Shown here in pieces: positions 1 through 13,206 of a stretch of 64,000 bases of DNA. Under the pieces are notes generated by a model. That model saw nothing but the letters and a program-made list of their open reading frames with translations, was not told the origin of the DNA and did not search any database. The position numbers and the translations under genes were made by a program. This DNA comes from a virus: IMG/VR virus record IMGVR_UViG_3300028559_000015, positions 1-64,000 of that record. The stretch is one strand, 5' to 3'. Each line of letters opens with the position of its first letter. Within the stretch, counting starts at the first letter, position 1.

Positions 1-240
1 AGGGATGAAATCTGCGGAGAGAACGCAGAGAGTAAAAACTTTCAGTGAGGAACATTGTGATTCCTCGCAAGCGGGCAAGTCCGAAATGCCGGACAACATA
101 GTCTCGCTTGTCAACAAAAGGCTAACCATTTATTATTTAAGAACATGAGAGAAGAACATTAGCCCCGGCCTCGACCGCCGCGCCCTCTACTGTTCTTTAA
201 TAATGAATGGTATACATTTATGTGAATGAGAGGATTGTGC

Positions 241-314
241 TGGGGGATAGCACAATTTGGTAGTGCGTCGGTTTTTGGTACCGAAGGTTCTAGGTTCGAG
301 CCCTAGTCCCCCAG
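241..314 (+). tRNA. tRNA-Gln(TTG), no encoded CCA
   Basis: Cloverleaf; anticodon arm TCGGT-TTTTGGT-ACCGA; acceptor TGGGGGA/TCCCCCA. Confidence 0.9.
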
Positions 315-340
315 CACAATCCTCTTATATAATATAAAAG

Positions 341-416
341 GCCGTCTTAGCTCAGTTGGTAGAGCGCCACACTAGTAATGTGGATGTCAGTGGTTCGAAT
401 CCTCTAGACGGCACCA
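341..416 (+). tRNA. tRNA-Thr(AGT)
   Basis: CCACA-CTAGTAA-TGTGG; GCCGTCT/AGACGGC-ACCA. Confidence 0.9.
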
Positions 417-428
417 TTCATTCTTCAC

Positions 429-505
429 GACCCTTTAGTTCAACCGGATAGAGCGTCAGTCTTCGAAACTGAATGTTGTAGGTTCGAGTCCTACAGGGGT
501 CGCCA
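429..505 (+). tRNA. tRNA-Arg(TCG)
   Basis: TCAGT-CTTCGAA-ACTGA; ends GCCA. Confidence 0.93.
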
Positions 506-511
506 ATTCAT

Positions 512-588
512 GCCCGCGTGGCTCAGCTGGATAGAGCATCAGATTACGAATCTGAGGGTCGGAGGTTCGAATCCTTCCGCGGGCGCCA
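512..588 (+). tRNA. tRNA-Arg(ACG)
   Basis: TCAGA-TTACGAA-TCTGA; ends GCCA. Confidence 0.95.
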
Positions 589-595
589 ATTTTAT

Positions 596-669
596 GTACG
601 CTAAGTGTTACGGTAGCACGACTGGTTCCAACCCAGTTAGCGTGGGTTCGACTCCTACAGCGTATGCCA
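596..669 (+). tRNA. tRNA-Trp(CCA)
   Basis: ACTGG-TTCCAAC-CCAGT; G73 discriminator. Confidence 0.88.
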
Positions 670-675
670 ATTCAT

Positions 676-959
676 TTCTCAATAGTGTAAAGGAAAAATC
701 CTAGTAGCTATGGTGAAAGGGTACTTGGAACATTGCTAGTAAAATCTAGAGTAATATCACACAGTAGCAAACGCAAAGGCTTAAAAAACTGTGAGCCGGG
801 GAAGAGCCGGACAGGCTTTGTGATATGAAATAGTGCTGAAAACAATGCTAAGAGTATTTGAGTAGTCATATTGAAACGATGAAGTACGTGGTAACACTCC
901 GGCATTAGCATTTGCGTTTGGAGCCGGAAATGTTGGTTCAAGCCCAACTTGAGAAGCCA
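676..959 (+). ncRNA. tRNA-Gln-like body with ~200-nt D-loop insertion and enlarged anticodon loop
   Basis: Acceptor TTCTCAA(676-682)/TTGAGAA(949-955)-GCCA; D-stem GTGT(685-688)/ACAC(894-897); T-arm GTTGG-TTCAAGC-CCAAC. Confidence 0.7.
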
Positions 960-1041
960 GAATATTATGGAGCCGTATGCACGGTAAGGGTCGATCACTT
1001 CGCTGGTGTTTAGCGTGATTGGCTGCTCCGCCCAATTTTAT

Positions 1042-1117
1042 GCTAGGTTAGTGTCAGCGGTTAGCACACGAGTTTGTGGAACTCGGTGGATTGGTTCAAA
1101 TCCAATACCTAGTACCA
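1042..1117 (+). tRNA. tRNA-His(GTG), type lacking G-1
   Basis: CGAGT-TTGTGGA-ACTCG; preceded by T; G1-U72, A73. Confidence 0.92.
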
Positions 1118-1124
1118 ATATCAT

Positions 1125-1145
1125 GCACCCTTAGCTCAGTGGTAG
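1125..1145 (+). pseudogene. Truncated tRNA 5' fragment upstream of HNH gene
   Basis: GCACCCT-TA-GCTC-AGTGGTAG is an acceptor 5' strand plus D-arm start; no 3' half follows. Confidence 0.6.
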
Positions 1146-1192
1146 TGGTGAATTAAAAATGCTATTTTTCTACCGCTGAGCTAAATACATTT

Positions 1193-1711
1193 ATGATATA
1201 CAATTGTGATAAATGTGACAAAGAGTTCGATTCTGTTCGTAAATTGAATGGGCATAAAAGTGTTCATCGAACCAAAGGCAGATACAGTGTCAGTAGAAAA
1301 AAGCCGGAAAACAATATTAATCATTCTTGCGTTCATTGCAGCAAAACTTTTCCGCACAAACATAGTTCTTACAATAAGTTTTGTTCTATGGAATGTAGTG
1401 CAAAGTACACATGGGAACAGGTTTCTATTCCTCGCATTGAGCAAGGAATGGGTGGAAATTTTAAGAGATACCTTAAAGAATCAAGAGGTGATCAATGCGA
1501 AGAATGCAGACAACCCAGCTATCATAACGGTAAACCCCTGACATTGCAGCTTGATCACATAGATGGCAACAGTGACAATGATGCATTAGAAAATCTTCGT
1601 TTGCTTTGTCCCAACTGTCATACACAGACCCCTACTCATAGTAGAAGCGGTCCCGACAAGAAAATGACAAGAAGAAATACGCATCTACGAAAATATAGAA
1701 TGGGTCTATAG
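1193..1711 (+). CDS. HNH homing endonuclease with N-terminal C2H2 zinc finger
   Basis: CDKC...HKSVH; LQLDHIDGN...NLRLLCPNCH. Confidence 0.9.
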   Translation: MIYNCDKCDKEFDSVRKLNGHKSVHRTKGRYSVSRKKPENNINHSCVHCSKTFPHKHSSYNKFCSMECSAKYTWEQVSIPRIEQGMGGNFKRYLKESRGDQCEECRQPSYHNGKPLTLQLDHIDGNSDNDALENLRLLCPNCHTQTPTHSRSGPDKKMTRRNTHLRKYRMGL

Positions 1712-1776
1712 TTCATCGGTAGAACGCTTCCTTGACATGGAAGAGGCGGTAGGTTCAACTCCTACTAGACCCACCA
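1702..1776 (+). tRNA. tRNA-Val(GAC)
   Basis: CTTCC-TTGACAT-GGAAG; ends ACCA; overlaps the HNH stop. Confidence 0.92.
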
Positions 1777-1871
1777 AATTTAAGGTGTACCAAAGTTTAT
1801 GCGGCCACATGCTAGAGCTACCTTCCGAAAGTAGTATTCAGCATAGAAAATAAGTGGCCGCGCCATATTAC

Positions 1872-1959
1872 GGAGTCGTGCTAGAGTGGCCGATTAGACT
1901 ATCTTGGAAAGGTAGCGTACCGCAAGGTACCGTGAGTTCGAATCTCACCGACTCCGCCA
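1872..1959 (+). tRNA. tRNA-Ser(GGA)
   Basis: CTATC-TTGGAAA-GGTAG; long variable arm. Confidence 0.93.
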
Positions 1960-1990
1960 AAAGATATTTTACGATGAGGTGATATTTCGG

Positions 1991-2062
1991 TTGACTTTGG
2001 GAAGAGTATCATATACATTAAGAAAATAGAGAGAGCAGCGATGTTCTCTCGTTCTTTGACAT
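1991..2062 (+). promoter_or_regulatory. sigma70 promoter plus boxB-like hairpin and boxA-like element
   Basis: TTGACT-17-TACATT; GAGAGAGCA-GCGA-TGTTCTCTC; GTTCTTTGACAT. Confidence 0.7.
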
Positions 2063-2090
2063 AGTTAGAAAATAATAAGTCTCTTATGAG

Positions 2091-2211
2091 ACTTGTTAGA
2101 TGAATGCATCAGCCCATAGTAGCTACTGGGTCGTGGACGATAGGTGTATAACACAAAAGACGGTTCAATTCCGTAAGCAGGTCGCGCCTGCGATGCATTC
2201 TTCTAACAAGT
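2091..2211 (+). ncRNA. Stem-clamped ncRNA with T-loop-like hairpin
   Basis: 20-bp closing stem 2091-2110/2192-2211; internal ACGG-TTCAATT-CCGT. Confidence 0.65.
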
Positions 2212-2221
2212 ATCGTATGAT

Positions 2222-2342
2222 CTGGTGTTCTTAGAAAGGGAGTTCCTTAGTGGCGTACTCTAACTCTGACCGGTATAAGGGGGGATAGGTCAGTATCCTA
2301 GGGAAGTGCAATTCTTCCAAACTCTCTTTCTAAGAACATCAG
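2222..2342 (+). ncRNA. Stem-clamped tRNA-like ncRNA
   Basis: 23-bp closing stem 2222-2244/2320-2342; T-arm-like GGAAG-TGCAATT-CTTCC. Confidence 0.6.
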
Positions 2343-2462
2343 GTTATTAAGTCAAGACAAAGCAGGCCCTAAAGCTCTTTGTCCCGCCCTCGCAAGCGGA
2401 TATAGAATGGTTTAGGACATTCTATGCAGGATCGTTCCCTGCCGAGGGTATATTTTTCTAAT

Positions 2463-2538
2463 GCTCCTGTAGCTCAGTTGGTAGAGCACCTGACTGAAGA
2501 TCAGGGTGTCGTCGGTTCGATTCCGTCTGGGAGCACCA
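2463..2538 (+). tRNA. tRNA-Phe(GAA)
   Basis: CCTGA-CTGAAGA-TCAGG; ACCA. Confidence 0.95.
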
Positions 2539-2692
2539 AATTTTACTCGTGTGTGTACGGTGACCCAAAAGATAGTCTCCATTCTCAAACCCAGGCTATC
2601 AAGTCCGATGTCCGTAGCAGTACTAATTTAGTTAGTATCAGTGACTTATGTTGAGATACGAGTTACGGCGAGTAAATACATTATACTACTAT

Positions 2693-2778
2693 GCGGATGT
2701 GGCGAAATTGGTAGACGCACCAGATTTAGGTTCTGGCACTCGCAAGGTGTGGGGGTTCGAGTCCCTTCATCCGCACCA
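2693..2778 (+). tRNA. tRNA-Leu(TAG)
   Basis: CCAGA-TTTAGGT-TCTGG; variable arm. Confidence 0.95.
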
Positions 2779-2788
2779 CTCTTAAAAT

Positions 2789-2874
2789 GCCCCGATGGCG
2801 GAATCGGTAGACGCGGGAGACTCAAAATCTCTTGCCCAAAAGGCGTGGGGGTTCGAGTCCCTCTCGGGGCACCA
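2789..2874 (+). tRNA. tRNA-Leu(CAA)
   Basis: GGAGA-CTCAAAA-TCTCT; variable arm. Confidence 0.95.
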
Positions 2875-2889
2875 GCTATTTCAGAATTT

Positions 2890-2966
2890 GGGCCCTTAGC
2901 TCAGTAGGTTAGAGCGTCCGACTTTTAATCGGAAGGTCCTGGGTTCGAATCCCAGAGGGCCCACCA
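2890..2966 (+). tRNA. tRNA-Lys(TTT)
   Basis: TCCGA-CTTTTAA-TCGGA. Confidence 0.95.
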
Positions 2967-2971
2967 AGTTT

Positions 2972-3066
2972 GCAACGTGGTGTAATGGTAGCACAGGAAG
3001 TCCGAGAGTCGTAATGATGGGTAGGCAGCAAGATGCCAGGATGCGGGTTCGATTCCCGACGTTGTG
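2972..3066 (+). ncRNA. tRNA-like RNA with normal D- and T-arms but no canonical anticodon arm
   Basis: GCAACGT/ACGTTGT; GTGT-AATGGTA-GCAC; CGGG-TTCGATT-CCCG; no CCA. Confidence 0.6.
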
Positions 3067-3072
3067 ATTAAG

Positions 3073-3256
3073 TTTGTAGTGGGTGTTATAGTATAAGTCA
3101 CTGCGCGGAAGCCGGCCAGCGGAAACACAGTAAAGGATGTGTCCTTGCAAGGGACTTTTGATTCTGACTTATGCAACATTAACTTACCCAACTGACCGGC
3201 GCTTCTAATTGGTCGATAATGCTGCTGATGTTGTGGTACAGCAGGCCCACTATAAA
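3073..3256 (+). ncRNA. Pseudoknotted ncRNA of unknown class
   Basis: Closing stem TTTGTAGTGGGT/GCCCACTATAAA; crossing helices ATAAGTCA/TGACTTAT and GCCGGCCAG/CTGACCGGC. Confidence 0.55.
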
Positions 3257-3282
3257 GCATAAATATTCATGGGAGGGTTCCT

Positions 3283-3660
3283 ATGAAGAAACTAGCAATA
3301 TTGTTTTTGTTCTTAGTGCTTACAGCGTGTAATCAGCCTAATAATACAGGTGCTGACAACTATCGATTTGTTGGCGCAGATTTTAATTATCGATTTGGCG
3401 CAAAACAATACGAGAACAGTAGAGTTACTGTTGATATTGTCACCTACAAATCAAGAACTGACTTACAAAAAGAAGCACGTAAATATGGCGTAACTGATCC
3501 TAATTTGGCAGCATTTACTCTTTTATTTAAAAATGATCAAGGTAAATGCACTATACACATGATGGATCCATCTATTTCATATGAGCCTGAGTTTGTAGGT
3601 CACGAGTTCCTACATTGTGTTTATGGTCAATGGCATACAGATAATAAATCTACAAGATAA
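3283..3660 (+). CDS. Lipoprotein with HExxH zinc-peptidase-like motif
   Basis: Lipobox LTAC; GHEFLHC; ATAAATA late promoter and GGAGG upstream. Confidence 0.75.
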   Translation: MKKLAILFLFLVLTACNQPNNTGADNYRFVGADFNYRFGAKQYENSRVTVDIVTYKSRTDLQKEARKYGVTDPNLAAFTLLFKNDQGKCTIHMMDPSISYEPEFVGHEFLHCVYGQWHTDNKSTR

Positions 3661-3662
3661 TT

Positions 3663-3736
3663 GCCCTGTTAGTTAAATGGTAGAACGACTGTTTCGTAAT
3701 CAGTAGATGGCAGTTCGATTCTGCCATAGGGCACCA
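3663..3736 (+). tRNA. tRNA-Thr(CGT)
   Basis: ACTGT-TTCGTAA-TCAGT. Confidence 0.9.
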
Positions 3737-3741
3737 AGTTT

Positions 3742-3835
3742 GCTCCCTTAGTTTAGCGGTAAAACACCTGGCTTATATCCAGCATCGTCTCCAGATTAGA
3801 GAGCGTCACAGGTTCGAATCCTGTAGGGAGTACCA
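3742..3835 (+). tRNA. tRNA-Ile(TAT) with long variable arm
   Basis: CTGG-CTTATAT-CCAG; ~24-nt variable region; ACCA. Confidence 0.8.
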
Positions 3836-3845
3836 AAACATTATT

Positions 3846-3931
3846 GCCCAGGTGGTGGAACGGTAGACACGCAACGTTGAGGTCGTTGTGGACGAAAGTC
3901 CGTGAAAGTTCGAGTCTTTTCTTGGGCACCA
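3846..3931 (+). tRNA. tRNA-Leu(GAG)
   Basis: CAACG-TTGAGGT-CGTTG. Confidence 0.95.
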
Positions 3932-4040
3932 AATTATCAGCCAATGCTGATAGATTATTTATAGATTTTGGTTGCACTAAGTCCAATCATAGTCTATATA
4001 ATATAAACAGTCTAAATATGATAATATATAGGAGTTAATC

Positions 4041-4601
4041 ATGGCGGTTCTAGCCTTAGACATTTCGGGTACTCCAAGAGCATGGATTACCAACGACGAC
4101 GCAATTAGCTATCATGCTAAGAACTTGGTTGTCTGGACTTTAGGAGATGTCATCGCTAAGTATCGCGGAGGCATTCAGAAGGACGGCCGACAAAGCTATC
4201 TTGAAACACCGAGCATCATTGCAGTACGTGGCACAGGATTCGATTTTCGTAAGCACAACAAAGTTGTCTTGACTAATCGTACCTTGTTTGCTCGTGATCG
4301 CAACATTTGCGGTTACTGCGGTGATCATTTTGGACACACGAGACTAAGCCGAGACCACATTGTTCCTAGATTCCATGGCGGAATCGATGAATGGACCAAC
4401 GTTGTCACTGCTTGCATCCCGTGCAACCAAAAGAAGGGGTGCAAGTCGCTCAAGCAATCCGGTATGGAACTGTTGTATGTCCCATATGAACCAAATCACT
4501 ACGAGCATTTGCTATTGCAAAACCGTCATGTTCTTGCTGATCAAATGGCATATCTAATGACAGGTGTACCGAAGCACAGTCGGCTTATTGATCTTAATTA
4601 G
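4041..4601 (+). CDS. HNH endonuclease (McrA-like family)
   Basis: LFARDRNICGYCG...DHIVP..GG..WTNVVTACIPCNQKKG. Confidence 0.9.
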   Translation: MAVLALDISGTPRAWITNDDAISYHAKNLVVWTLGDVIAKYRGGIQKDGRQSYLETPSIIAVRGTGFDFRKHNKVVLTNRTLFARDRNICGYCGDHFGHTRLSRDHIVPRFHGGIDEWTNVVTACIPCNQKKGCKSLKQSGMELLYVPYEPNHYEHLLLQNRHVLADQMAYLMTGVPKHSRLIDLN

Positions 4602-4654
4602 AAAAATAAGCCGACACTGCTCAAGAAGTTAAATAGCATAGATGAAAGTTATGT

Positions 4655-4730
4655 TCCGCGATAGCTCAGTTGGTAGAGCGTCTGACTGTTAATCAGAATG
4701 TCCCTGGTTCGAGCCCAGGTCGTGGAGCCA
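4655..4730 (+). tRNA. tRNA-Asn(GTT)
   Basis: TCTGA-CTGTTAA-TCAGA. Confidence 0.95.
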
Positions 4731-4738
4731 AAATTAAT

Positions 4739-4814
4739 GCCCCTATAGCTCATTTGGTAGAGCGCCTGCCTTGTAAGCAGGAGGCGGTGGGTTCGAAACC
4801 TGCTGGGGGCACCA
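4739..4814 (+). tRNA. tRNA-Thr(TGT)
   Basis: CCTGC-CTTGTAA-GCAGG. Confidence 0.95.
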
Positions 4815-4869
4815 ATTATAAAAGCAAGAGTTTATCAAAACTCTTGCTTTTACTTTAACGATTTTGATT

Positions 4870-4946
4870 GTCTCCTTAGCTTAGCTGGATAGAGCAACAG
4901 ACTTCTAATCTGTAGGTCGCTGGTTCGAATCCAGCAGGGGACGCCA
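4870..4946 (+). tRNA. tRNA-Arg(TCT)
   Basis: ACAGA-CTTCTAA-TCTGT. Confidence 0.95.
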
Positions 4947-4951
4947 TTTTT

Positions 4952-5036
4952 GAGCCACTCCCGCGAGGTGAGGCCTGACTCATCGACGTTTGCAAAGGCG
5001 TTGAGTTGGTGCTGGTGCGAGTCCAGCATGTGGTTG
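4952..5036 (+). ncRNA. Degenerate tRNA-like element
   Basis: AGCCAC/GTGGTT ends; T-arm-like TGCTGG-TGCGAGT-CCAGCA; long central hairpin. Confidence 0.5.
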
Positions 5037-5076
5037 CTTTTTTGAGAGATTAAGAATACGATATAAATAGATTCAT

Positions 5077-5152
5077 GGGGATATAGCTCAGTTGGTAGAG
5101 CGACGGCTTTGCAAGCCGTAGGTCCGGGGTTCGAACCCCCGTGTCTCCACCA
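5077..5152 (+). tRNA. tRNA-Ala(TGC)
   Basis: ACGGC-TTTGCAA-GCCGT; G3-U70. Confidence 0.95.
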
Positions 5153-5159
5153 AAATTAT

Positions 5160-5234
5160 CGGGGAGTAAGTCAGCGGTAGACGGCCTGGTTTGGGACCAG
5201 GAGGTCGGAGGTTCGATCCCTCTCTCCCCGACCA
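5160..5234 (+). tRNA. tRNA-Pro(TGG)
   Basis: CCTGG-TTTGGGA-CCAGG. Confidence 0.95.
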
Positions 5235-5241
5235 AAATAAG

Positions 5242-5316
5242 GCCCGGTTAGCTCAGCGGAAGAGCATCTCGTTTACACCGAGAGGGTCGGGGGTTCGAAC
5301 CCCTCACCGGGCACCA
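5242..5316 (+). tRNA. tRNA-Val(TAC)
   Basis: TCTCG-TTTACAC-CGAGA. Confidence 0.95.
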
Positions 5317-5389
5317 TTTGTAGTAAGAACTACACACATAATGTGTGTAGTTTTTGGTTTTTTGATAAATAGTTATTCACTGTTTAGCA

Positions 5390-5791
5390 GTGGGATATAA
5401 GGGGTTTTATGAGTTGCAAAAGATTAATAAACACCTCCTGGTTAAGGGTTTTATAGAAGAGGCGCCAGGGCCCGATTATGTATCAGTCTTGAATGACTGG
5501 TTTCTTAGGCTCGTTGAGGCTATCGATATGAAGGTTCTTATGAATCCTCACTGCGTATGGTGTGACGACGATGGGAATGAAGGCGTGACCGGCGTAGTGG
5601 GTATCACTACTAGTCACAGCAGCATTCACTTCTGGCCAGAATATTATATGTTTGATCTTTATTCTTGCAAGGAATTTGAGGTTGAGACCGTTGTTGAAAT
5701 GCTTAAGGAGTTCAAAACCCATAGCCTTCAATATCAAGTGATCAACCGAGATACCGGAGAAATGCTTGATAACGGTTTCCTTAACTTATAA
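5390..5791 (+). CDS. speD: S-adenosylmethionine decarboxylase-like proenzyme (start uncertain)
   Basis: GVTGVVGITTSHSSIHFWPE...DLYSCK pyruvoyl self-cleavage signature. Confidence 0.8.
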   Translation: MGYKGFYELQKINKHLLVKGFIEEAPGPDYVSVLNDWFLRLVEAIDMKVLMNPHCVWCDDDGNEGVTGVVGITTSHSSIHFWPEYYMFDLYSCKEFEVETVVEMLKEFKTHSLQYQVINRDTGEMLDNGFLNL

Positions 5792-5800
5792 ACTACCTAT

Positions 5801-5889
5801 GTAGGAATGACCGAGTGGTCGAAGGTGGCAGTCTCCAAAACTGTTGTGGCGCAAGCCCCGCGTGGGTTCGAATCCTACTTCCTATGCCA
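5801..5889 (+). tRNA. tRNA with CCA (Trp) anticodon on a Ser-like long-variable-arm body
   Basis: GCAGT-CTCCAAA-ACTGT; variable arm GGC-GCAA-GCC; G73. Confidence 0.8.
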
Positions 5890-5890
5890 A

Positions 5891-6138
5891 TTAAACTCAC
5901 TGTTCACCGAGGGGCAGCGTCAGCCCATTGACGACTTGTGGATGTCCGATAAGTCTCGTGCAACTTACACGAGGAACTGTTGGAATACAGAAACAAAGAA
6001 TCTTTGGGTACTGTGGTTGCAGCCCGAGAAAAAGCCGAGACTTTGAGGTAGAGGGAGAAGTCCCCGAGCCAAAGAGTCAGAGCAATTATCCCGCTACAGT
6101 GGTGAGTGGGGCTGTCACGCGGTGAACAGTGAGTTTAA
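5891..6138 (+). ncRNA. ~250-nt structured ncRNA with perfect 19-bp closing stem
   Basis: TTAAACTCACTGTTCACCG/CGGTGAACAGTGAGTTTAA. Confidence 0.7.
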
Positions 6139-6145
6139 AAACTTC

Positions 6146-6215: not shown

Positions 6216-6231
6216 TGTTAGAAATTCTAAT

Positions 6232-6317: not shown

Positions 6318-6325
6318 AACTTTAG

Positions 6326-6486
6326 ACTTGTTACGCTATCACTGCGATCTTCGGTTCGAAACGATGACAGTAGATGTGGTGTAAGGTAGCACTCCGCCCG
6401 ACGATAGGCCGATACGAGGCCGACAATAGGGGGGCGGTTCGGGTTTCGAAGTCCCGAAGCTATATTGCAGTGATAGCGTAACAAGT
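6326..6486 (+). ncRNA. Stem-clamped tRNA-like ncRNA with expanded anticodon arm
   Basis: 23-bp closing stem 6326-6348/6464-6486; D-arm GTGT-AAGGTA-GCAC; CCGCCC/GGGCGG; T-arm-like TTCGGG-TTTCGAAGT-CCCGAA. Confidence 0.7.
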
Positions 6487-6490
6487 TTAT

Positions 6491-6566
6491 GCACCCATCG
6501 TCTAGTGGTCTAGGATATCGCCCTTTCAAGGCGGGGACACGGGTTCAAATCCCGTTGGGTGTACCA
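6491..6566 (+). tRNA. tRNA-Glu(TTC)
   Basis: CGCC-CTTTCAA-GGCG. Confidence 0.93.
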
Positions 6567-6826: not shown

Positions 6827-6860
6827 TAGAAGTAAGTAAACAACCATCGAGGACATCATC

Positions 6861-7064: not shown

Positions 7065-7118
7065 TAAGCAGATTTCAAATCTGACTTACAAATGATAAAT
7101 ACATTTGAGGAGTTAGAT

Positions 7119-7556: not shown

Positions 7557-7636
7557 TCGCCGAAGTTGGAGAGTCGGGACAGTCTGTAAAACTGTTGTGT
7601 AATGCTGAGTTGGTTCGAATCCATCATCACCCACCA
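7551..7636 (+). tRNA. tRNA-Tyr(GTA)
   Basis: ACAGT-CTGTAAA-ACTGT; overlaps the HNH stop. Confidence 0.92.
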
Positions 7637-7643
7637 ATATAAT

Positions 7644-7718
7644 GCGCCTGTAGCTCAGGGGAAGAGCACCGTGCTGATAACGCGGTGGTCGGAGGTTCAA
7701 ATCCTCCCGGGCGCACCA
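7644..7718 (+). tRNA. tRNA-Ile(GAT)
   Basis: CCGTG-CTGATAA-CGCGG. Confidence 0.95.
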
Positions 7719-7763
7719 ATTATAAAAAGTATACGTCAATCATAACTACATAAATATTAATAC

Positions 7764-7853
7764 GGAAGCGTGTCCGAGTGGTTTAAGGATCTTGTCTTGA
7801 AAACAAGCGAGGGTGAAAGTCCTCCGTGAGTTCGAATCTCACCGCTTCCGCCA
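7764..7853 (+). tRNA. tRNA-Ser(TGA)
   Basis: CTTGT-CTTGAAA-ACAAG; long arm. Confidence 0.95.
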
Positions 7854-7873
7854 TCATTCATTAGGAGAAAGAT

Positions 7874-8257
7874 GTGTCATACCTATTATTCTTAGACGAT
7901 GAGCGACATCCTGATGATGTTACGTGGGAAAAGTTCCCCAGAGATTTGGTTACGTTCATCTTAAAAGATTTTGATACGTTCGTGAAGCAAGTCATAACCT
8001 CAGGAATGCCTGCGTTCGTGTGCTTCGATCATGATCTATGTGATCAACACTATGAGGCTATGATAGCAGAAGCGCAAGGTCTTCCGGCAGACTATGGTCC
8101 TAAGAAGACGGGCTATGACGCTGCTAAATGGCTAGTAGATTTCTGTGAAGATAACAAGCGTAAGTTTCCCCGTTATGTGGTTCATTCTATGAATCCGGAA
8201 GGGAAAGAACGAATCATCGCATACATCGAGGATGCTAAGAATCGGCTAGATATCTAG
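7874..8257 (+). CDS. Cyclic-phosphate-processing receiver-like domain protein
   Basis: LFLDDER...FDHDL...TGYD..KWL...VHSMNPEG. Confidence 0.75.
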   Translation: MSYLLFLDDERHPDDVTWEKFPRDLVTFILKDFDTFVKQVITSGMPAFVCFDHDLCDQHYEAMIAEAQGLPADYGPKKTGYDAAKWLVDFCEDNKRKFPRYVVHSMNPEGKERIIAYIEDAKNRLDI

Positions 8258-8262
8258 AATAC

Positions 8263-8352
8263 GGAGAGTTGGCTGAGCGGTCGAAAGCGGCACCCTGCTA
8301 AGGTGTTGTACGGGCAACTGTACCGAGGGTTCGAATCCCTCACTCTCCGCCA
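8263..8352 (+). tRNA. tRNA-Ser(GCT)
   Basis: GCACC-CTGCTAA-GGTGT; long arm. Confidence 0.95.
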
Positions 8353-8578
8353 AGATTTTAAAAATAACAGTTGACATTGGTTATCCGTTTTGCTATATTG
8401 AATTATAAGCTGAGAAAACGGAGTTACAAAGACATGAATAAGCATCGTTTGGTCACTGTCAACGGCGTGATTTATCGCGGGTTTGATATTGATGGTAAAC
8501 TTTATGTTGTTATGATTCCTCTCGGCAATCATGGTGATTGCATCAGGGCTTGACAACGTTCTGTAAAATATGTATAAC

Positions 8579-8660
8579 GCACCGGTGGCAGATTGGGAAT
8601 GCGGTGGACTGCAAATCCGCTACGCAAGTGAAGTAGGTTCGATTCCTACCCGGTGCTCCA
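8579..8660 (+). tRNA. tRNA-Cys(GCA) with enlarged variable loop
   Basis: GTGGA-CTGCAAA-TCCGC; U73. Confidence 0.9.
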
Positions 8661-8774
8661 AATACTAAACATATCGGTACCGATTGAAGTCAAATATTGA
8701 GGACATAGGGCGAATCGGCTAAGAGAATGCATGTGTGACTGCCACTATACGTTTGGTAAAGACAAAGAGATTAA

Positions 8775-8850
8775 AGGCGAATAGTTCAATTGGTAGAACC
8801 TTCTGCTCATAACAGAATAGTTGTCGGTTCAAGTCCGGCTTCGCCTACCA
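8775..8850 (+). tRNA. tRNA-Met/Ile2(CAT)
   Basis: TTCTG-CTCATAA-CAGAA. Confidence 0.9.
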
Positions 8851-8871
8851 AATACTAGAAAGGAGAAGGCA

Positions 8872-9234
8872 ATGGAATGGCCAAAAGTTGATGAAATGCT
8901 CGGTCAGACCTTCTCTAAGGTTTGGTCTGATGACGAGACAGTGACGTTTGAAAATGATGAGGTGCGTTATACGCTCTATCACGCTCAGGATTGTTGCGAA
9001 AGTGTTTACGTCGAAGATATATGCGGTGACTTGGAAGACTTGGAGGGCTGGCCTATGCTAGTCTCCAGAGAAGATACGAACGTTGAAGGTCCGGTCATGG
9101 ATGACGAAAGTTATACGTGGACGTTCTACAACTTCGCAACCTTCAAGGGATTTGTGACTGTTCGATTCTACGGATCCTCGAACGGGTACTATTCAGAAGA
9201 CGTATCTTTCAAGAAAGAGCTACTTGCTAATTGA
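8872..9234 (+). CDS. Conserved phage protein (QDCCE...SNGYYSE family)
   Basis: HAQDCCESV and YGSSNGYYSE motifs; AGGAG RBS. Confidence 0.75.
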   Translation: MEWPKVDEMLGQTFSKVWSDDETVTFENDEVRYTLYHAQDCCESVYVEDICGDLEDLEGWPMLVSREDTNVEGPVMDDESYTWTFYNFATFKGFVTVRFYGSSNGYYSEDVSFKKELLAN

Positions 9235-9433
9235 CAGATTCGAATAACGAAAGAATTTAAGTGAAAGTCTATATCCTTATCAACCGCGAGATATATGGTT
9301 TATCCAGAATTATTGCTGTGTATGACAATCTTGATGAAGCTGAAAAGCATCGTAAGAACCTAAATGATAACGAAGACTTTTTCGACGATAACAACTACTC
9401 TATCGAAACACATAGTGTAGATACAAAGTTTTA

Positions 9434-9519
9434 GGGCGTATTGGACAATTGGTTGGTCCAGCAGACTCTTAATCTGCCGCAGAAATGCCTTGTGAGTTCG
9501 AACCTCACTACGCCCTCCA
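9434..9519 (+). tRNA. tRNA-Lys(CTT) with long variable arm
   Basis: GCAGA-CTCTTAA-TCTGC; extra arm GCA-GAAA-TGC; U73. Confidence 0.82.
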
Positions 9520-9708
9520 ATACAATCCCGGGCGCCCGGGTTGATGCATTTAGGTGCGGTGCGTTGTAAAATAGGCAGGTAACTGCCGAGTGTCACGAAT
9601 TTTTGAGTTGCCGATGAAGCTAGGTCGCTCCTAGACATATGGAAGTAATTACTCTTAGTAGATGTGATGTCTACCCATCGGCAAACGAAGCAATATAAGG
9701 AGGATATC

Positions 9709-9870
9709 ATGCCAGCAATGACATTAGCGAAGTCGGGCAAGCGTTATACTCATGAAGAATGGGTTAAGTTAGACGCCGAAGAACGCATACAGCTTCTTAG
9801 TATGTATGGCCCGGGTTATACAGACGAAGCGTGGAAAAAGCATTACGGTAATAGAAAGAAAAATAAATGA
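9709..9870 (+). CDS. Small hypothetical protein
   Basis: AGGAGG RBS before ATG 9709. Confidence 0.55.
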   Translation: MPAMTLAKSGKRYTHEEWVKLDAEERIQLLSMYGPGYTDEAWKKHYGNRKKNK

Positions 9871-10280
9871 AACATAAGATGTACTGTATCTTTGCTAAAG
9901 AGAGCGTTCAGAAGATGAACGGTATCCGTGGCAAAATGTGTACGCAGGCAGGACATGCTTATCTACACGCATTTTGGGATGCAACTATCCCTAATGCGAA
10001 TCATACTACGATTGCTGAACCTGATATTCTTGTTAAGAAGCAGGAACAGGCACTAGCGTATGCTCACGGTGATCATGCATATAAGATCACTCTTATCGTA
10101 GACACTGTTGATGAGTTGAAAGCATTGCAAGAAGCATACAAGAATGTCTGCGGTACTGCACTAGTGACTGATGCAGGATTCACTGTTTTCAATGAACCGA
10201 CTACGACTTGTCTTGGCATCGGTCCGATACGAGAAGATAACATCGGTGAAGATTTGAAAGCACTAAAGACGTTTACTTAA
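9867..10280 (+). CDS. pth2: Peptidyl-tRNA hydrolase type II
   Basis: GKMCTQAGHA...KITL...VTDAGFT...TTTCLGIGP. Confidence 0.88.
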   Translation: MKHKMYCIFAKESVQKMNGIRGKMCTQAGHAYLHAFWDATIPNANHTTIAEPDILVKKQEQALAYAHGDHAYKITLIVDTVDELKALQEAYKNVCGTALVTDAGFTVFNEPTTTCLGIGPIREDNIGEDLKALKTFT

Positions 10281-10281
10281 T

Positions 10282-10358
10282 GACGGGGTAGCTCAGTTGG
10301 TCAGAGCGCCAGACTCATATTCTGGATGTCGAAGGTTCAAGTCCTTCTTCCGTCACCA
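10282..10358 (+). tRNA. tRNA-Met/Ile2(CAT)
   Basis: CCAGA-CTCATAT-TCTGG. Confidence 0.9.
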
Positions 10359-10366
10359 AACTTAAT

Positions 10367-10443
10367 GGCTCGTTAGTCGAGTTGGTCAAGACGCCAGCCT
10401 GTCACGCTGGAGATCACGGGTTCGAGTCCCGTACGAGTCGCCA
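10367..10443 (+). tRNA. tRNA-Asp(GTC)
   Basis: CCAGC-CTGTCAC-GCTGG. Confidence 0.95.
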
Positions 10444-10514
10444 TTTTTAATACCCAAAACACTGTACAACAGTGATCGTTTATACTATAGTCAGTAAATA
10501 AGAAGGAAACACAC

Positions 10515-11078
10515 ATGAAGATCAATCTACGCAAGGCCAACGCTATTCAAGTAGCGATCAACGAAACTGTCAAGGGCCTTGAATTCAATGCTACGGCTAG
10601 CATTAACGAGTTCCAAGACGCTGACAAAGAGATTCTTGCTGCGTCCAGCAAGTTCAGCGGCAACCTCGCTCGCCGTCTCGCTTTGCTTGATGCCCTTTAC
10701 GAGATTCGTAAGGCGGTCGCGTCGGCAAACGATAGCGCAGGCATCGATGGTCGTCTCGCTGACGTTGCCCGACTTGAAAAGGACCTTCAGTTCTACAGCA
10801 CGTATGCAAAGGCTTCGGTCATTACCGATTCCGCTGTCATCAACGGCAAGCTAGAGAAGATTCGTAACCGCAAGGAAGATGCTTATTCTTACCGAGGCGA
10901 GACGGTCGACACTTCTATCTTTAACGAAAAGGTACTTGAAAGTTTCAAGGGTATCGTTGCTTCTACTAAGAAGCAGAAGCAGAAGCTGCAGGACGAACTC
11001 CTTGAGTTGAACGTCCGCACTGAAATTGAGTTTTCAGCGGCAACTGTTACTACGCTCACCAACGAGAAAATCCTTTAA
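10515..11078 (+). CDS. Coiled-coil protein, possibly DIP1984/septicolysin-like
   Basis: Helical heptads; C-terminal KQKLQDELLELNVRTEIEF. Confidence 0.6.
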   Translation: MKINLRKANAIQVAINETVKGLEFNATASINEFQDADKEILAASSKFSGNLARRLALLDALYEIRKAVASANDSAGIDGRLADVARLEKDLQFYSTYAKASVITDSAVINGKLEKIRNRKEDAYSYRGETVDTSIFNEKVLESFKGIVASTKKQKQKLQDELLELNVRTEIEFSAATVTTLTNEKIL

Positions 11079-11087
11079 GGGGGTATG

Positions 11088-11501
11088 ATGAAAGTCGGTC
11101 TTAGTTACAGTCGTTGTGTTAAGGATATTGTTGACGGCAAGGTCAACATCGATGATGTTTTGGTGGTAATCGCCCGAACCGACTTTGACCCTACTAACGA
11201 TAAGCAGTGGGGAGGAATTTGGGATGGCTACACCGGAGGCGGCCTGTTTAGTCATGCTGAATGGCATGGCTACCCTGACGAGCAGAAGTTCCGTGAGGTA
11301 ACTTTAGAACTCTATAACAGAGGGAAGCTGCATCAGCCACGCAAGTTTGGAGTAATGCCCAAACGTCGTCCAGAGATTTGGTTGGAAGTAGTTCTTCTTG
11401 ACTCTGAACTAGAGCGTAACCCTGCTGCTAAAAATGCATGGGAACAGTTTCAGATGATTGCTGGTCTAACCGACGTTAAGGTAGATCACAACTATCAATA
11501 A
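11088..11501 (+). CDS. Conserved hypothetical phage protein
   Basis: GLSYSRCVKDI...GKLHQPRKFG; GGGGG RBS. Confidence 0.7.
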   Translation: MKVGLSYSRCVKDIVDGKVNIDDVLVVIARTDFDPTNDKQWGGIWDGYTGGGLFSHAEWHGYPDEQKFREVTLELYNRGKLHQPRKFGVMPKRRPEIWLEVVLLDSELERNPAAKNAWEQFQMIAGLTDVKVDHNYQ

Positions 11502-11538
11502 GTTTGGTAGGTCGGCCCCCTAGTAGGGGTAAACTACC

Positions 11539-11766
11539 CGGAAGGAAAAGAGAGACGAGAGTAGGCATTTACGTTTCAGTAATGAAACATTGATCAGGCG
11601 CTTGAAACGCTCCATACTAGCATGAATCAAACTTATTTTGTTGCACATTGTGGTTTGAGTATAAGTTAGTTTTTGCAGTTTGTTTTTTGTTGATTGCTTG
11701 ATAGGTTGTTCTCTTGAGAGACACCGATGCAGATTGCACAGTCTATCACTTACTTTTTTCCTTCTG
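11539..11766 (+). ncRNA. Candidate ncRNA with 14-bp closing stem and internal TTG heptad repeats
   Basis: CGGAAGGAAAAGAG/CTTTTTTCCTTCTG; TTG at 7-nt spacing 11641-11696; T-run after the stem. Confidence 0.6.
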
Positions 11767-11798
11767 TATTTTTTTTTAAATAATAGGCAAAATAGTTC

Positions 11799-12104
11799 TT
11801 GACATTGAGGTCAAGAGCAGCTATATTAAGTAAATCAAGAAAAGCAAAAAAAGTTCTTGACATTTTATAAGGAACTATATATCTGTAGGAGGAAAGAATG
11901 GTTGCAACACAAGAAACAGATAATGCTATTAAAAAATTCTACAGAGATTTGGGATACACGGACAGAATATCTGGAAAACAGCGAAAAATAAATCTAGACG
12001 GTCTTGTAGTTAAGTGGTATAATGAGGGGTTCGATGCTTCATATCCTTTCTGGGATGCTGAAGCATCTTAAGCAGCAAAATAAGTAGTATTAGTTCTTTG
12101 AAAT
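11799..12104 (+). promoter_or_regulatory. Tandem sigma70 promoters and boxA-like element upstream of the large RNA
   Basis: TTGACA..TATATT (11799-11827); second TTGACA near 11857; TAGACG-17-TATAAT (11995-12023); GTTCTTTGAAAT (12093-12104). Confidence 0.6.
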
Positions 12105-12114
12105 TGTTGATGAC

Positions 12115-12222
12115 ATACTCATTAGATGAATACTGTTGGCGTAATGGGGAAGTGGTATCCCTCCCGTAAAGCGGTGGTCCTGGCGTTGGTTCGAATCCAA
12201 CCAGTGTTCTTCTAATGAGTAT
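12115..12222 (+). ncRNA. Stem-clamped tRNA-like ncRNA
   Basis: 21-bp stem 12115-12135/12202-12222; D-loop-like AGTGGTA; T-arm GTTGG-TTCGAAT-CCAAC. Confidence 0.65.
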
Positions 12223-12229
12223 AAGAATT

Positions 12230-13068
12230 GGGGGCATAGCCTCACTAGGGTAGCAGGGAGTAATCTCTGTCAAAGCAAGGTTTCCTATAAACTTGCGCCA
12301 GCAATGGTCCATCTATGCAAGCCTGAGTTAGAGTTGACTCGCTTAAGCGAAAGCAACTCCCGTCTGTAGAAAGGCGGTAGGCAGTAAGTCAGAGTTGAAG
12401 TCCGAAAGGATAGGAACAGAGCCAGTCGGTGAGTTCTAAGAGGGTTGGCGCCCGAACTTCAACTAGCCAAACTGACGAATGTTGAATACTAACAGGTAGT
12501 TATTGAGTCTGACCTCGCAAGGGAAGGCAAGATAGCAATACAAACGAGGAAGGGATAACCGGAATCGTGAAGTATGATTGAGTATCCCGCAAGGAGAAAG
12601 ATACTAGGTGTGTTGTATTCTGTATCTAACAAGATATGGAGCAACTGGAGCAGCACATCTTCGTAGGTTCGCAAATTGCATAATGGTAATGCAACAGTTT
12701 TATGTACTGTAGATTCTAGGTTCAACTCCTAGTTTGTAACACAAAAGCGAAAGACTGCTCCGGTATATGTTTAAAGGTGCTTAATACCACACTCGCAAGG
12801 GAATGTGGTTCAGGGATGCTCGCAAGGCGGAACTGATTGATCGGAAAGAAAGCGTAGGTTCTTAGCGGAATCGAACTGCTCGCAAGGCAGGCGAAGGATA
12901 GATGGTCGAGTAGACATATGCGACGAGTCAAACGCCAGACTCTAAAAAAGGCAGCATTGAGTGATACTAGGTGACTGTAAAAAGCTCTAGTGGATAACGG
13001 TAGAACGGTCCTCGCAAGGGATTCGGTAATGACCAAAGACACTCGCTACAAGCCCGTAATCTCAGGGT
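12230..13068 (+). ncRNA. Large ornate RNA, probably GOLLD class, with embedded tRNA-like domain (12667-12740)
   Basis: ~840 nt without a credible ORF; about six CGCAAG-capped hairpins; GGTGTGTTGTATT; terminal hairpin GCCC-GTAATCTCA-GGGT; located in a phage tRNA array. Confidence 0.75.
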
Positions 13069-13096
13069 GGATTATAAATAGACTAAATAATATTAG

Positions 13097-13206
13097 ACTA
13101 TTTTGATGAACGCATTCGCAATCAGGACGCTGATGCTCGTTGAAGTGGAGTAGGAAGTAGCTACCTATGACATGGAGAGTTGGCTGAGTGTGTTCTTCAA
13201 AATAGT
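13097..13206 (+). ncRNA. Stem-clamped ncRNA
   Basis: 21-bp stem 13097-13117/13186-13206 containing GATGAA/TTCTTC. Confidence 0.6.

What the first reader, a model, noticed from the sequence alone, without database searches (positions are those of the whole stretch)
131..13206. Family of stem-clamped tRNA-like RNAs between the real tRNAs, sharing a GAUGAA/UUCUUC stem signature
Seen: several intergenic segments are each closed by a 14-23 bp near-perfect helix (131-204, 2091-2211, 2222-2342, 5891-6138, 6326-6486, 12115-12222, 13097-13206). Several hold T-arm and/or D-arm modules without a normal anticodon arm or CCA. Three stems with unrelated interiors (2091, 12115, 13097) carry the same GA-U-GAA/UUC-U-UC motif with a central U-U mismatch. 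Two (2091, 6326) share ACTTGTTA/TAACAAGT ends. Known: bacterial Y RNAs (YrlA) combine a long stem with a tRNA-like domain, and RNase III cuts ~20-bp stems. Inference: a phage system that releases modular tRNA mimics, for example decoys for anticodon nucleases or ligands for a stem-binding protein.
Basis: partly seen in the sequence, partly recalled or inferred. Interest (0 to 1): 0.82.

Follow-up and report, generated by a model that had tools for sequence, protein, structure and literature searches.

The report
Constant-stem RNA cassettes in phage tRNA islands
A giant lake-water phage and its relatives place small folded RNAs among their tRNA genes, each held in the same 20-base-pair stem with one fixed mismatch, and the RNA inside the stem is swapped between close relatives; this looks like an undescribed way of producing and exchanging small phage RNAs.

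Summary
All seven stems exist at the given coordinates and fold far better than shuffles (z -4.7 to -9.4). E2, E6 and E7 share one scaffold: a 10-bp outer helix (ACU..UUWGA / UCWAA..AGU), a U.U mismatch, then an 8-12-bp inner helix. I found 47 distinct copies in 53 of 79 loci examined, all from uncultured-phage contigs. All lie in tRNA islands, and 90 of 90 with a neighbouring tRNA share its orientation. None of 72 pattern matches in 596 Gb of prokaryote genomes forms the helix. The helix covaries (13 of 18 pairs) and shows G.U 48 against A.C 2, so it is RNA of the tRNA strand. The interiors fall into 31 unrelated clusters. They are replaced or doubled between relatives whose flanks are 90-97% identical. 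About a third carry a T-arm. One cargo family also fills the intervening sequence of a permuted tmRNA. E3, E4 and E5 are separate clamped RNAs. No Rfam family matches. YrlA/Ro60 is not supported.

Best reading: modules excised from tRNA-operon transcripts, probably by host RNase III, which release small stable RNAs. The decoy role is untested. Earlier notes of this scan describe similar cassettes, and this same scaffold, on other DNA.

The parts
125..211 (+). E1: clamped unit with 13 bp, a U.U mismatch, 7 bp and a 45-nt interior. It is a diverged variant of the scaffold: its 3' arm resembles the family arm minus one C.
   Evidence: z -5.80. A homologue at 91% identity lies in L038. Assignment to the family is by eye, not tested.
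223..331 (+). A real tRNA-Gln(UUG) (241-315) without an encoded CCA. Its acceptor stem is prolonged to a 23-25-bp clamp.
   Evidence: z -8.94. The clamp is conserved in L005, L024 and L029.
1991..2090 (+). Leader of the E2 operon: a promoter-like site (9 of 12 matches), a hairpin at 2029-2050, then GTTCTTTGACAT.
   Evidence: The same layout precedes tRNA-Leu (6146-6174, 11 of 12) and E6 (11799-11827, 11 of 12). The promoter scan as a whole was not above shuffles (34 found against a mean of 26.5).
2091..2211 (+). E2: a U.U-scaffold cassette. The cargo has a T-arm-like hairpin and a hairpin whose loop holds GUAGCUAC.
   Evidence: z -6.48. A cargo relative lies in L013. The homologous site in L005 holds two tandem cassettes.
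2217..2347 (+). E3: a separate structured RNA with a 28-bp clamp and no U.U motif.
   Evidence: z -7.72. It is present in L038. In L005 the 3' arm differs.
5891..6138 (+). E4: a 248-nt RNA with a perfect 19-bp clamp, starting 1 nt after the tRNA at 5801-5889.
   Evidence: z -6.42. It is present in L004 (99% identity) and precisely absent in L003.
6321..6491 (+). E5: a conserved RNA with a 26-bp clamp that keeps the scaffold's outer box (ACUUGUUA/UAACAAGU) but has no mismatch. A T-arm-like hairpin sits next to the 3' strand. The unit lies between tRNA-Leu and tRNA-Glu.
   Evidence: z -9.42. In one search, with 5 sequences, 15 of 51 pairs have compensatory changes, 5 of them in the clamp.
12115..12222 (+). 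E6: a U.U-scaffold cassette with tRNA-like cargo (T-arm stacked on the stem, no CCA). It is the first RNA after the leader and lies directly before GOLLD.
   Evidence: z -4.66. In L002 the interior is replaced while the outer stem is kept.
12223..13068 (+). GOLLD RNA with an embedded tRNA-like domain (12669-12740), flanked by E6 and E7.
   Evidence: Rfam RF02032, 192.4 bits, over 12605-13068. RNA-library contigs cover 12239-13056.
13094..13209 (+). E7: a U.U-scaffold cassette with non-tRNA cargo, ending 1-4 nt before tRNA-Met.
   Evidence: z -6.05. The cargo family recurs in another scaffold subtype before tRNA-Phe. L002 has two other cassettes in tandem at this site.

Best explanation
E2, E6 and E7 (and probably E1) belong to an undescribed family of RNA cassettes in the tRNA operons of a lineage of uncultured freshwater jumbo phages.

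Each cassette is transcribed with the tRNAs and with GOLLD. Its two ends pair into a constant helix: a 10-bp AU-rich outer part, a pyrimidine-pyrimidine mismatch, then an 8-12-bp inner part. This helix closes a 45-121-nt cargo that is an independently folded RNA.

I propose that the constant helix is an excision and stability signal, like the stems of rRNA intervening sequences and rRNA leader-trailer helices. A double-strand-specific endonuclease, most likely host RNase III, would cut near the mismatch. The weak outer half would then fall apart. That would free the 3' trailer of the upstream tRNA and the 5' leader of the downstream tRNA for normal trimming and RNase P cleavage. The inner helix plus cargo would remain as a small stable RNA.

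Because both arms are nearly identical in all copies, cargos can be exchanged between copies and between co-infecting phages by recombination within the arms. That would give the fast cargo turnover that is seen.

Shown: the RNA-level helix, its constancy, the modular cargo exchange, the placement between a CCA end and an RNase P site, and selection on cargo structure. Inferred: cleavage at the mismatch, the enzyme, stability of the product, and any role of the cargos, for example as decoys or sponges in phage-host conflict.
For: Helix and strand:
- In 39 distinct copies, 99.3% of 696 cells pair and 13 of 18 pairs have compensatory changes. 0 of 500 shuffles reached this, and slid controls paired at most 52%.
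- In 47 copies the stem cells are WC 789, G.U 48, A.C 2 and other 7.
- 90 of 90 instances with a neighbouring tRNA are co-oriented with it.

Specificity:
- 29 of 37 IMG/VR pattern matches are real scaffolds. 0 of 72 matches in 596 Gb of prokaryote genomes are.
- In a complete 360-kb relative there are 3 copies, all on the forward strand and all within 235-254 kb. The reversed-pattern control gave 0.

Modularity:
- There are 31 cargo clusters, and 7 of the 8 clusters with two or more members occur in more than one arm subtype.
- The E6 interior is replaced in L002. The E7 site holds two other cassettes in L002. The E2 site is doubled in L005. Flanks in these cases are 90-97% identical.
- G002 holds an array of 4-5 consecutive units.

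Cargo under selection: compensatory pairs occur inside two cargo families.

Placement:
- 23 of 49 contexts end 3-10 nt before a tRNA, of 9 identities. 5 contexts start within 5 nt of a tRNA 3' end.
- Others follow the GOLLD 3' end or a promoter leader.

Excision logic:
- The commonest cargo family, with its inner helix, also fills the intervening sequence of a permuted tmRNA (RF04321, 92.6 bits).
- That segment is absent from mature tmRNA and is removed by tRNA-processing enzymes (PMC11915505, passages read).
- rRNA intervening sequences with a 28-bp stem bearing one mismatch are excised by RNase III (PMC4990558, passages read).
Against: - No end of any cassette RNA has been mapped.
- The only RNA-library evidence for a cassette is one 151-nt contig of depth 2.
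- The phages encode no RNase III and no dsRBD. The enzyme would therefore be the host's, and the host is unknown.
- Host RNase III has too little sequence preference (my recollection) to explain 12 or more nearly invariant nucleotides per arm. That constancy could instead reflect a specific binding protein or recent spread.
- One copy has a U-A pair in place of the mismatch (L165), so the mismatch is not indispensable.
- T5 stable RNAs keep their whole end helices as annotated (5-12 bp). The clamp might likewise stay intact.
- My sequence sets were gathered with patterns and filters that demand the core motif and 7 of 8 pairs on each side. Part of the percentage paired is therefore by construction.
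Confidence: 0.5

Rival explanations
1. The stems are processing spacers or selfish intervening-sequence-like insertions. They are tolerated because they are excised or because they separate neighbouring tRNAs and GOLLD. The cargos would then be filler or decaying tRNA remnants with no role of their own.
For: - They sit in tRNA spacers and in a tmRNA intervening sequence.
- Distribution among close relatives is sporadic.
- About a third of the cargo clusters hold T-arm remnants.
- Real but CCA-less tRNAs occur as cargo: tRNA-Gln in the window and tRNA-Asn in phage Phosso.
- rRNA intervening sequences have been called selfish elements (PMC4990558, abstract and passages read).
Against: - Cargo families keep sequence and structure, with compensatory changes, across different arm subtypes, genome positions and frames.
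- A bare processing hairpin needs no 45-121-nt folded interior.
Confidence: 0.25
2. The helix is not cut. It is a permanent handle that shields both ends from exonucleases and is bound by a sequence-specific phage or host protein, which the variable cargos then use or deliver.
For: - Near-invariance of ACU, UU, GA-U-GA and their partners across 47 copies exceeds what a helix alone needs.
- RNase P at the downstream tRNA would by itself leave the full helix with a 3-10-nt tail.
- T5 stable RNAs are annotated with their complete end helices.
Against: - Where a tRNA's CCA end lies 1-3 nt before the helix (5 of 49 contexts), its 3' maturation needs a cut inside or removal of the helix.
- No dsRBD protein was found in two (near-)complete relatives.
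- No candidate partner was identified among the island ORFs.
Confidence: 0.15
3. The elements are DNA-level mobile elements, miniature transposons or homing cassettes. Their terminal inverted repeats would be recognised by a transposase or by the island's HNH endonucleases.
For: - Conserved inverted ends, presence/absence polymorphism, tandem arrays and many insertion sites.
- Three HNH endonuclease genes lie in the island.
Against: - 90 co-oriented copies against 0 opposite.
- G.U 48 against A.C 2 in the stem, and a strand-specific pyrimidine mismatch.
- No repeated flanking 5-mers that would indicate target-site duplication.
- No transposase was seen among the ORFs scanned.
- Co-orientation could partly follow from spread by homologous recombination, so it is not decisive alone.
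Confidence: 0.07
4. The elements are bacterial-type Y RNAs (YrlA-like) that tether a Ro60 protein.
For: Some members have a long stem plus a T-arm-containing, tRNA-like module (E6, E2).
Against: - The YrlA covariance model does not match any element at E<=1.
- No TROVE domain was found in the window's record or in relatives that are 100% and 92% complete.
- Most cargos are not tRNA-like.
Confidence: 0.03

Closest known systems
Intervening sequences (IVS) of bacterial 23S rRNA, excised by RNase III
   Same: Both are bordered by complementary ends that form a 20-28-bp stem with an occasional mismatch. Both sit inside stable-RNA precursors and are removed without re-ligation. Both are distributed sporadically among close relatives (PMC4990558, passages read).
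   Different: The cassettes lie between tRNAs, next to GOLLD, or in a tmRNA intervening sequence, not inside rRNA helices. One constant stem carries many unrelated structured cargos. Excision is not demonstrated.
Stable non-tRNA RNAs of phage tRNA clusters: T5 RNAI, III, IV, 1, 2, 2H, 3 and X, and T4 RNAC/RNAD
   Same: Both are small RNAs of unknown function interleaved and co-oriented with phage tRNAs and HNH genes. Some are annotated as tRNA-like, and their ends pair (T5 record NC_005859.1; T4 statement in PMC3014915, passage read).
   Different: The predicted T5 end helices are only 5-12 bp and share no common sequence. BLAST of one scaffold copy against 50,697 phage records found nothing real. 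A constant stem with exchangeable cargo is not a described feature of these RNAs.
Intervening sequence of permuted (two-piece) tmRNA genes
   Same: One cargo family, with its inner helix, occupies exactly this position in L164, L162 and related loci. That segment is closed by a helix, lies between a CCA end and an RNase P site, and is discarded on maturation (PMC11915505, passages read).
   Different: In tmRNA the closing helix is the acceptor stem and the cuts are made by tRNA-processing enzymes. The window's copies use the U.U scaffold instead.
YrlA / bacterial Y RNA (Rfam RF02553)
   Same: Both combine a long stem with, in some members, a tRNA-like module.
   Different: There is no model match, no Ro60 gene was found, the stem sequence is different, and most cargos are not tRNA-like.
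RNase III processing stems of rRNA operons and phage T7 intercistronic sites
   Same: Both are ~20-bp helices in polycistronic stable-RNA or early transcripts. Within one phage, the sites resemble each other. Promoter-plus-leader elements lie upstream. The comparison with T7 and rrn sites is recalled, not tested here.
   Different: Here the loop of the helix is a conserved folded RNA of 45-121 nt. Cleavage is not shown.

Membership tests
YrlA / Y RNA (RF02553) | Match to the family covariance model at its gathering score | tested here: not met
   The only hit is 26.6 bits (cut-off 69), at 450-564 on two real tRNAs. No hit fell on cassettes in 14 related loci at E<=1.
YrlA / Y RNA (RF02553) | A Ro60 (TROVE) partner encoded by the same genome | tested here: not met
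   No PF05731 match in G000 (26% complete), G001 (100%), G002 (92%) or G003. The host genome is unknown.
tRNA (RF00005) | Cloverleaf scored by Infernal, with a free acceptor end and CCA | tested here: not met
   E6 is called only by ARAGORN, with the anticodon at position 38. There is no RF00005 hit at E<=1. Its acceptor end is buried in a 20-bp helix with no CCA.
RNase III-excised intervening sequences | Complementary termini forming a helix of about 20 bp or more within a stable-RNA precursor | tested here: met
   The elements lie in tRNA operons, co-oriented with the tRNAs.
RNase III-excised intervening sequences | Sporadic presence among close relatives | tested here: met
   E4 is absent in L003. 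The E6 and E7 interiors are replaced or doubled in L002.
RNase III-excised intervening sequences | Excision by RNase III | not testable with these tools
   No raw RNA reads were available. The RNA-library contigs cannot show ends.
Phage tRNA-cluster stable RNAs (T5, T4) | Non-tRNA RNA gene inside the tRNA cluster, on the same strand, abutting tRNAs | tested here: met
.
Phage tRNA-cluster stable RNAs (T5, T4) | Sequence or structural homology to the T5 RNAs | tested here: not met
   BLAST of a scaffold copy against the phage collection found no real match. T5 end helices are 5-12 bp and lack the motif. T4 RNAC/RNAD were not compared.
Miniature inverted-repeat transposable element | Target-site duplication, both orientations, and a cognate transposase | tested here: not met
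   Flanking 5-mers differ on the two sides. 0 of 90 copies are in the opposite orientation. No transposase was seen among the ORFs scanned.
GOLLD RNA (RF02032), for 12605-13068 only | Match above the gathering score | tested here: met
   192.4 bits against a cut-off of 150.

The most novel reading that the evidence does not exclude
The scaffold may be a natural 'display and exchange' system for RNA. It would be a constant double-stranded handle whose two arms act both as the excision signal in the transcript and as portable homology for swapping cargo genes between phages. This would be an RNA counterpart of gene cassettes.

On this reading the phages keep a fast-changing repertoire of small structured RNAs, among them tRNA look-alikes with a locked acceptor end. 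These would titrate host tRNA-directed or RNA-sensing defence proteins, possibly working together with the GOLLD cage that they flank.
Probability: 0.2. Interest if true: 0.9.

Novelty: new variant of a known kind. Interest (0 to 1): 0.72.

Why it matters
Phage tRNA islands are usually read as codon-usage or anti-defence tRNA stores. The small 'stable RNAs' between the tRNAs of T4 and T5 have had no function assigned since they were first described.

This family gives that old problem a handle. It has a sharply defined, searchable stem, dozens of natural cargo variants, natural swap experiments between near-identical phages, and a link to GOLLD and to the discarded segment of two-piece tmRNA.

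If the stem is an excision signal, it explains how such islands are processed. It also offers a natural scaffold for expressing stable RNAs. If the cargos are decoys, it opens a class of RNA-based counter-defence.

Cultured relatives have analogous shared-arm units: Sinorhizobium phage Phosso with two, and Agrobacterium phage Atu_ph07 with one long clamp. This makes the question testable at the bench.

Tried and rejected
- **Rfam.** I ran it at gathering and at E<=1 on the window, at E<=1 on 14 related loci and at E<=0.01 on L164. No family fell on any cassette.
- **YrlA/Ro60/RtcB idea.** Rejected.
- **Phage-encoded RNase III, dsRBD and CCA-adding enzyme.** None in G000-G002. Only G003 has a CCA-adding enzyme.
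- **Coding potential.** The ATG inside the GATG motif opens frames that stop after 2-34 codons in 40 of 47 copies and run to the element's end in 7. There is no common frame. Rejected.
- **Transposon reading.** No flanking duplication was seen.
- **Cultured phages.** BLAST of one copy against 50,697 phage records gave only short chance matches.
- **Prokaryote genomes.** 72 pattern matches, 0 with the helix.
- **Island proteins.** Pfam and PHROGs gave three HNH endonucleases, AdoMet decarboxylase, a cREC receiver domain, PTH2 and unknowns, but no candidate partner.
- **RNA libraries.** Four metatranscriptome runs held only as contigs leave E1-E5 and E7 without cover, and E6 with a single depth-2 record. 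This says nothing either way, because small RNAs and variable sites assemble poorly. The RNA runs held only 6-7% of the sampled words, so I draw no habitat conclusion from them.
- **Promoter scan.** As a whole it was not above shuffles (34 found against 26.5 expected). Only the three 11-of-12 sites are worth noting.
- **E3.** The comparison had only 3 sequences, and the L005 3' arm does not pair, so there is no covariation claim for E3. E4 has no diverged relative.
- **Candidate-RNA catalogue.** A published catalogue of 8,495 candidate structured RNAs from IMG/VR (PMC10690425, passages read) may contain this motif.
- **Literature.** Searches turned up no description of a constant-stem cassette family in phage tRNA islands. 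These were word searches of an open-access library only.

Full report
**Context.** The window is the first 64 kb of an 89.9-kb IMG/VR virus record that CheckV rates 26% complete.
- Its family-B DNA polymerase is closest to those of cultured jumbo phages: 46% identity to Sinorhizobium phage Phosso and 45% to Agrobacterium phage Atu_ph07.
- Fifteen DNA runs labelled lake water, freshwater or aquatic metagenome hold at least half of the sampled words of 4001-14000.
- Bases 1-14000 are a tRNA island. ARAGORN gives 38 calls, all on the + strand. Infernal gives 37 tRNA matches and a GOLLD RNA at 12605-13068 with 192.4 bits.
- Between these lie three HNH endonuclease genes, an AdoMet decarboxylase, a cREC receiver-domain protein, a PTH2 peptidyl-tRNA hydrolase and small ORFs of unknown function.
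- Three strong promoter-like sites (11 of 12 matches) lie at 6146, 8371 and 11799. A weaker one lies at 1991. One clear terminator lies at 5324-5356.

**The observation.**
- Each element folds far better than its shuffles. The z-scores run from -4.66 to -9.42, and 0 of 200 shuffles did as well in any case.
- Long-range helices are concentrated in the island: 8 against 3 in the remaining 50 kb, and 0-1 in shuffles.
- An eighth clamp encloses the genuine tRNA-Gln (226-328).
- None of the elements matches any Rfam family, even at E<=1.

**They are not one family.** E2, E6 and E7 share a precise scaffold.
- From the 5' end it reads ACU, two covarying positions, UU, A or U, GA, an unpaired U opposite a U, then G, A, R, Y, R, C and a further 2-6 pairs.
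- E1 looks like a diverged copy. I judged this by eye.
- E5 keeps only the outer eight pairs of the scaffold and is otherwise its own conserved RNA. In five sequences down to 72% identity, 15 of 51 pairs have compensatory changes, 5 of them in the clamp.
- E3 and E4 are further separate RNAs, found only in close relatives.

**Relatives show cassette behaviour.** Protein-anchored searches fetched four loci at 65-97% nucleotide identity.
- In L002 the outer stem of E6 is kept, but the whole interior, including the inner stem, is a different sequence that again pairs.
- At the E7 site L002 carries two other cassettes in tandem, each with the same arms.
- In L005 the E2 site holds two cassettes, and an E6-site cassette has yet another cargo.
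- E4 is precisely absent in L003.

**The scaffold family is large and phage-specific.** A pattern made of the two arm cores found 37 stretches in IMG/VR.
- Several stretches held 2-3 matches, and 29 of the 37 are full scaffolds.
- The same pattern found 72 single matches in 596 Gb of prokaryote genomes, and none forms the helix.
- Two further scans added 11 loci with a scaffold out of 28 new loci.
- In all, 53 of 79 loci examined hold 94 instances and 47 distinct sequences. Some loci are pieces of one contig.
- All lie in tRNA islands.
- In a complete 360,683-bp relative, the three exact-pattern copies lie within 235-254 kb on one strand. The reversed-pattern control gave none.
- No copy was found in 50,697 cultured-phage records.

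**It is an RNA helix of the tRNA strand.**
- On an alignment of 39 distinct copies, 99.3% of 696 cells pair and 13 of 18 pairs show compensatory changes. No shuffle out of 500 reached this, and sliding one strand drops pairing to 39-52%.
- The copies had been selected for at least 7 of 8 pairs on each side of the core, so the percentage is partly by construction. The compensatory changes at the free positions are not.
- G.U pairs outnumber A.C 48 to 2.
- 90 of 90 instances with a neighbouring tRNA share its direction.
- The mismatch is U.U in 45 copies and C.U in 2.
- Among elements from loci fetched without the core pattern, it is U.U in 16, C.U in 1 and a U-A pair in 1. It is therefore nearly universal, not absolute.

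**Cargo.** Between the 19-nt arms lie 45-121 nt.
- Permissive BLAST sorts the cargos into 31 clusters. 9 of these contain a T-loop-like motif.
- 8 clusters have two or more members, and 7 of those occur in more than one arm subtype.
- Two cargo families with enough divergence show compensatory pairs in their own hairpins.
- The cargos are therefore separate, selected RNA folds that assort independently of arm subtype and of genome position. One family precedes tRNA-Thr, -Ala, -Pro and -Glu in different contigs.

**Placement.**
- 23 of 49 distinct contexts end 3-10 nt before a tRNA, of nine identities. 5 begin within 5 nt of a tRNA's 3' end.
- Others are the first RNA after a promoter and leader, as E2 and E6 are. 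Others sit between the 3' end of GOLLD and the next tRNA, as E7 does.
- RNA-library contigs from four runs of two studies cover GOLLD from 12239 to 13056 at 99% identity or more.
- One depth-2 record covers 12152-12222 and continues into the start of another scaffold arm.

**A telling second frame.** A scan for the core of the commonest cargo found 20 stretches.
- In several of them the cargo and its inner helix lie in the intervening sequence of a permuted tmRNA gene.
- This was confirmed by ARAGORN and by Rfam (RF04321, 92.6 bits; RF01849, 88 bits). The cargo appears there as a roughly 90-nt insertion between the CCA and the 5' end of the other piece (alignment).
- That segment is absent from mature tmRNA and is removed by tRNA-processing enzymes (PMC11915505, passages read).
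- So the unit that moves is 'inner helix plus cargo'. Every frame puts it between a CCA end and an RNase P site, closed by an outer helix with a discontinuity where the cuts fall.

**Mechanism proposed.** By analogy with the tmRNA case and with rRNA intervening sequences, I propose cleavage near the mismatch by host RNase III.
- rRNA intervening sequences have a 28-bp stem with a mismatch and are excised by RNase III (PMC4990558, passages read).
- Cleavage would be followed by loss of the AU-rich outer half and release of cargo with a ~10-bp stem.
- That is about the length of the end helices predicted for the annotated stable RNAs of T5 (5-12 bp).
- The phages themselves encode no RNase III, dsRBD or TROVE and show no significant RtcB match.
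- This step is inference. An uncut, protein-bound handle is a serious rival.

**Related architecture in cultured phages.**
- Phosso has two units with shared arms of a different sequence. One holds a CCA-less tRNA-Asn and one a non-tRNA cargo. Each lies between a CCA end and the next tRNA.
- Atu_ph07 has a 25-bp clamp.
- These offer laboratory systems.

**Relation to earlier notes of this scan.**
- Other notes describe stem-clamped cassettes in tRNA islands of unrelated phages. One first-reader note describes this same U.U helix on another genome.
- I used those notes as leads only. I checked the T5 lead and the GOLLD anticodon-arm note.

**Verdict.** The thing is a new variant of a known kind: stable small RNAs and excised stem-loops in stable-RNA operons. 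What distinguishes it is a constant stem with exchangeable cargo.

Noticed in passing
window 12655-12750; L002 5429-5523; L003 9425-9522; L050 2043-2138: The tRNA-like domain embedded in GOLLD is nearly identical in four relatives except for its anticodon arm, which reads UAU, UAG, CUU and CUU.
   Followed up: partly
L164 9942-10357 (also L162, L167, L170, L172): These viral contigs carry a permuted tmRNA whose intervening sequence holds a conserved ~90-nt structured RNA. It is the same RNA as the commonest scaffold cargo.
   Followed up: partly
L128 1186-1282 and 7978-8073 (Sinorhizobium phage Phosso); L127 reverse strand 4902-5049 (Agrobacterium phage Atu_ph07): Cultured jumbo phages have their own long clamps in the tRNA island. 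In Phosso two units share arm sequences. One encloses a CCA-less tRNA-Asn and the other a non-tRNA fold.
   Followed up: partly
window 2112-2130 (E2) and 13151-13166 (E7); also L008 and L013 cargos: Otherwise different cargos share a hairpin whose loop holds the self-complementary GUAGCUAC. This could allow loop-loop dimers. Not tested.
   Followed up: no
window 1118-1190 and 1193-1711; 7092-7556: HNH endonuclease ORFs abut or overlap tRNA genes. A tRNA 5' stub followed by its complement forms a hairpin just before the first HNH gene.
   Followed up: no
window 7874-8257 and 9867-10280: The island encodes a cyclic-phosphate-processing receiver domain protein (PF20274, E 5e-15) and a PTH2 peptidyl-tRNA hydrolase (E 1e-13). 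Both point to RNA-end or tRNA metabolism.
   Followed up: no
window 2971-3067: A borderline tRNA match (29.7 bits against a cut-off of 29) with a long insertion. The whole block 2966-3659 is absent in L003.
   Followed up: no
L022 5159-5328: A manA RNA (RF01745, 69.5 bits against a cut-off of 55.2) sits inside a related phage's tRNA island.
   Followed up: no
window 11840-12100 versus L002 and L003: The window has an extra ~250 nt between the promoter and E6, which the relatives lack. It holds a second promoter-like TTGACA box and a 57-codon ORF (11898-12071).
   Followed up: no
L131 reverse strand 14933-15619 (G002): An array of four to five consecutive clamped units: an E5-type unit, a unit with a C.U mismatch, and two U.U units.
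   Followed up: partly
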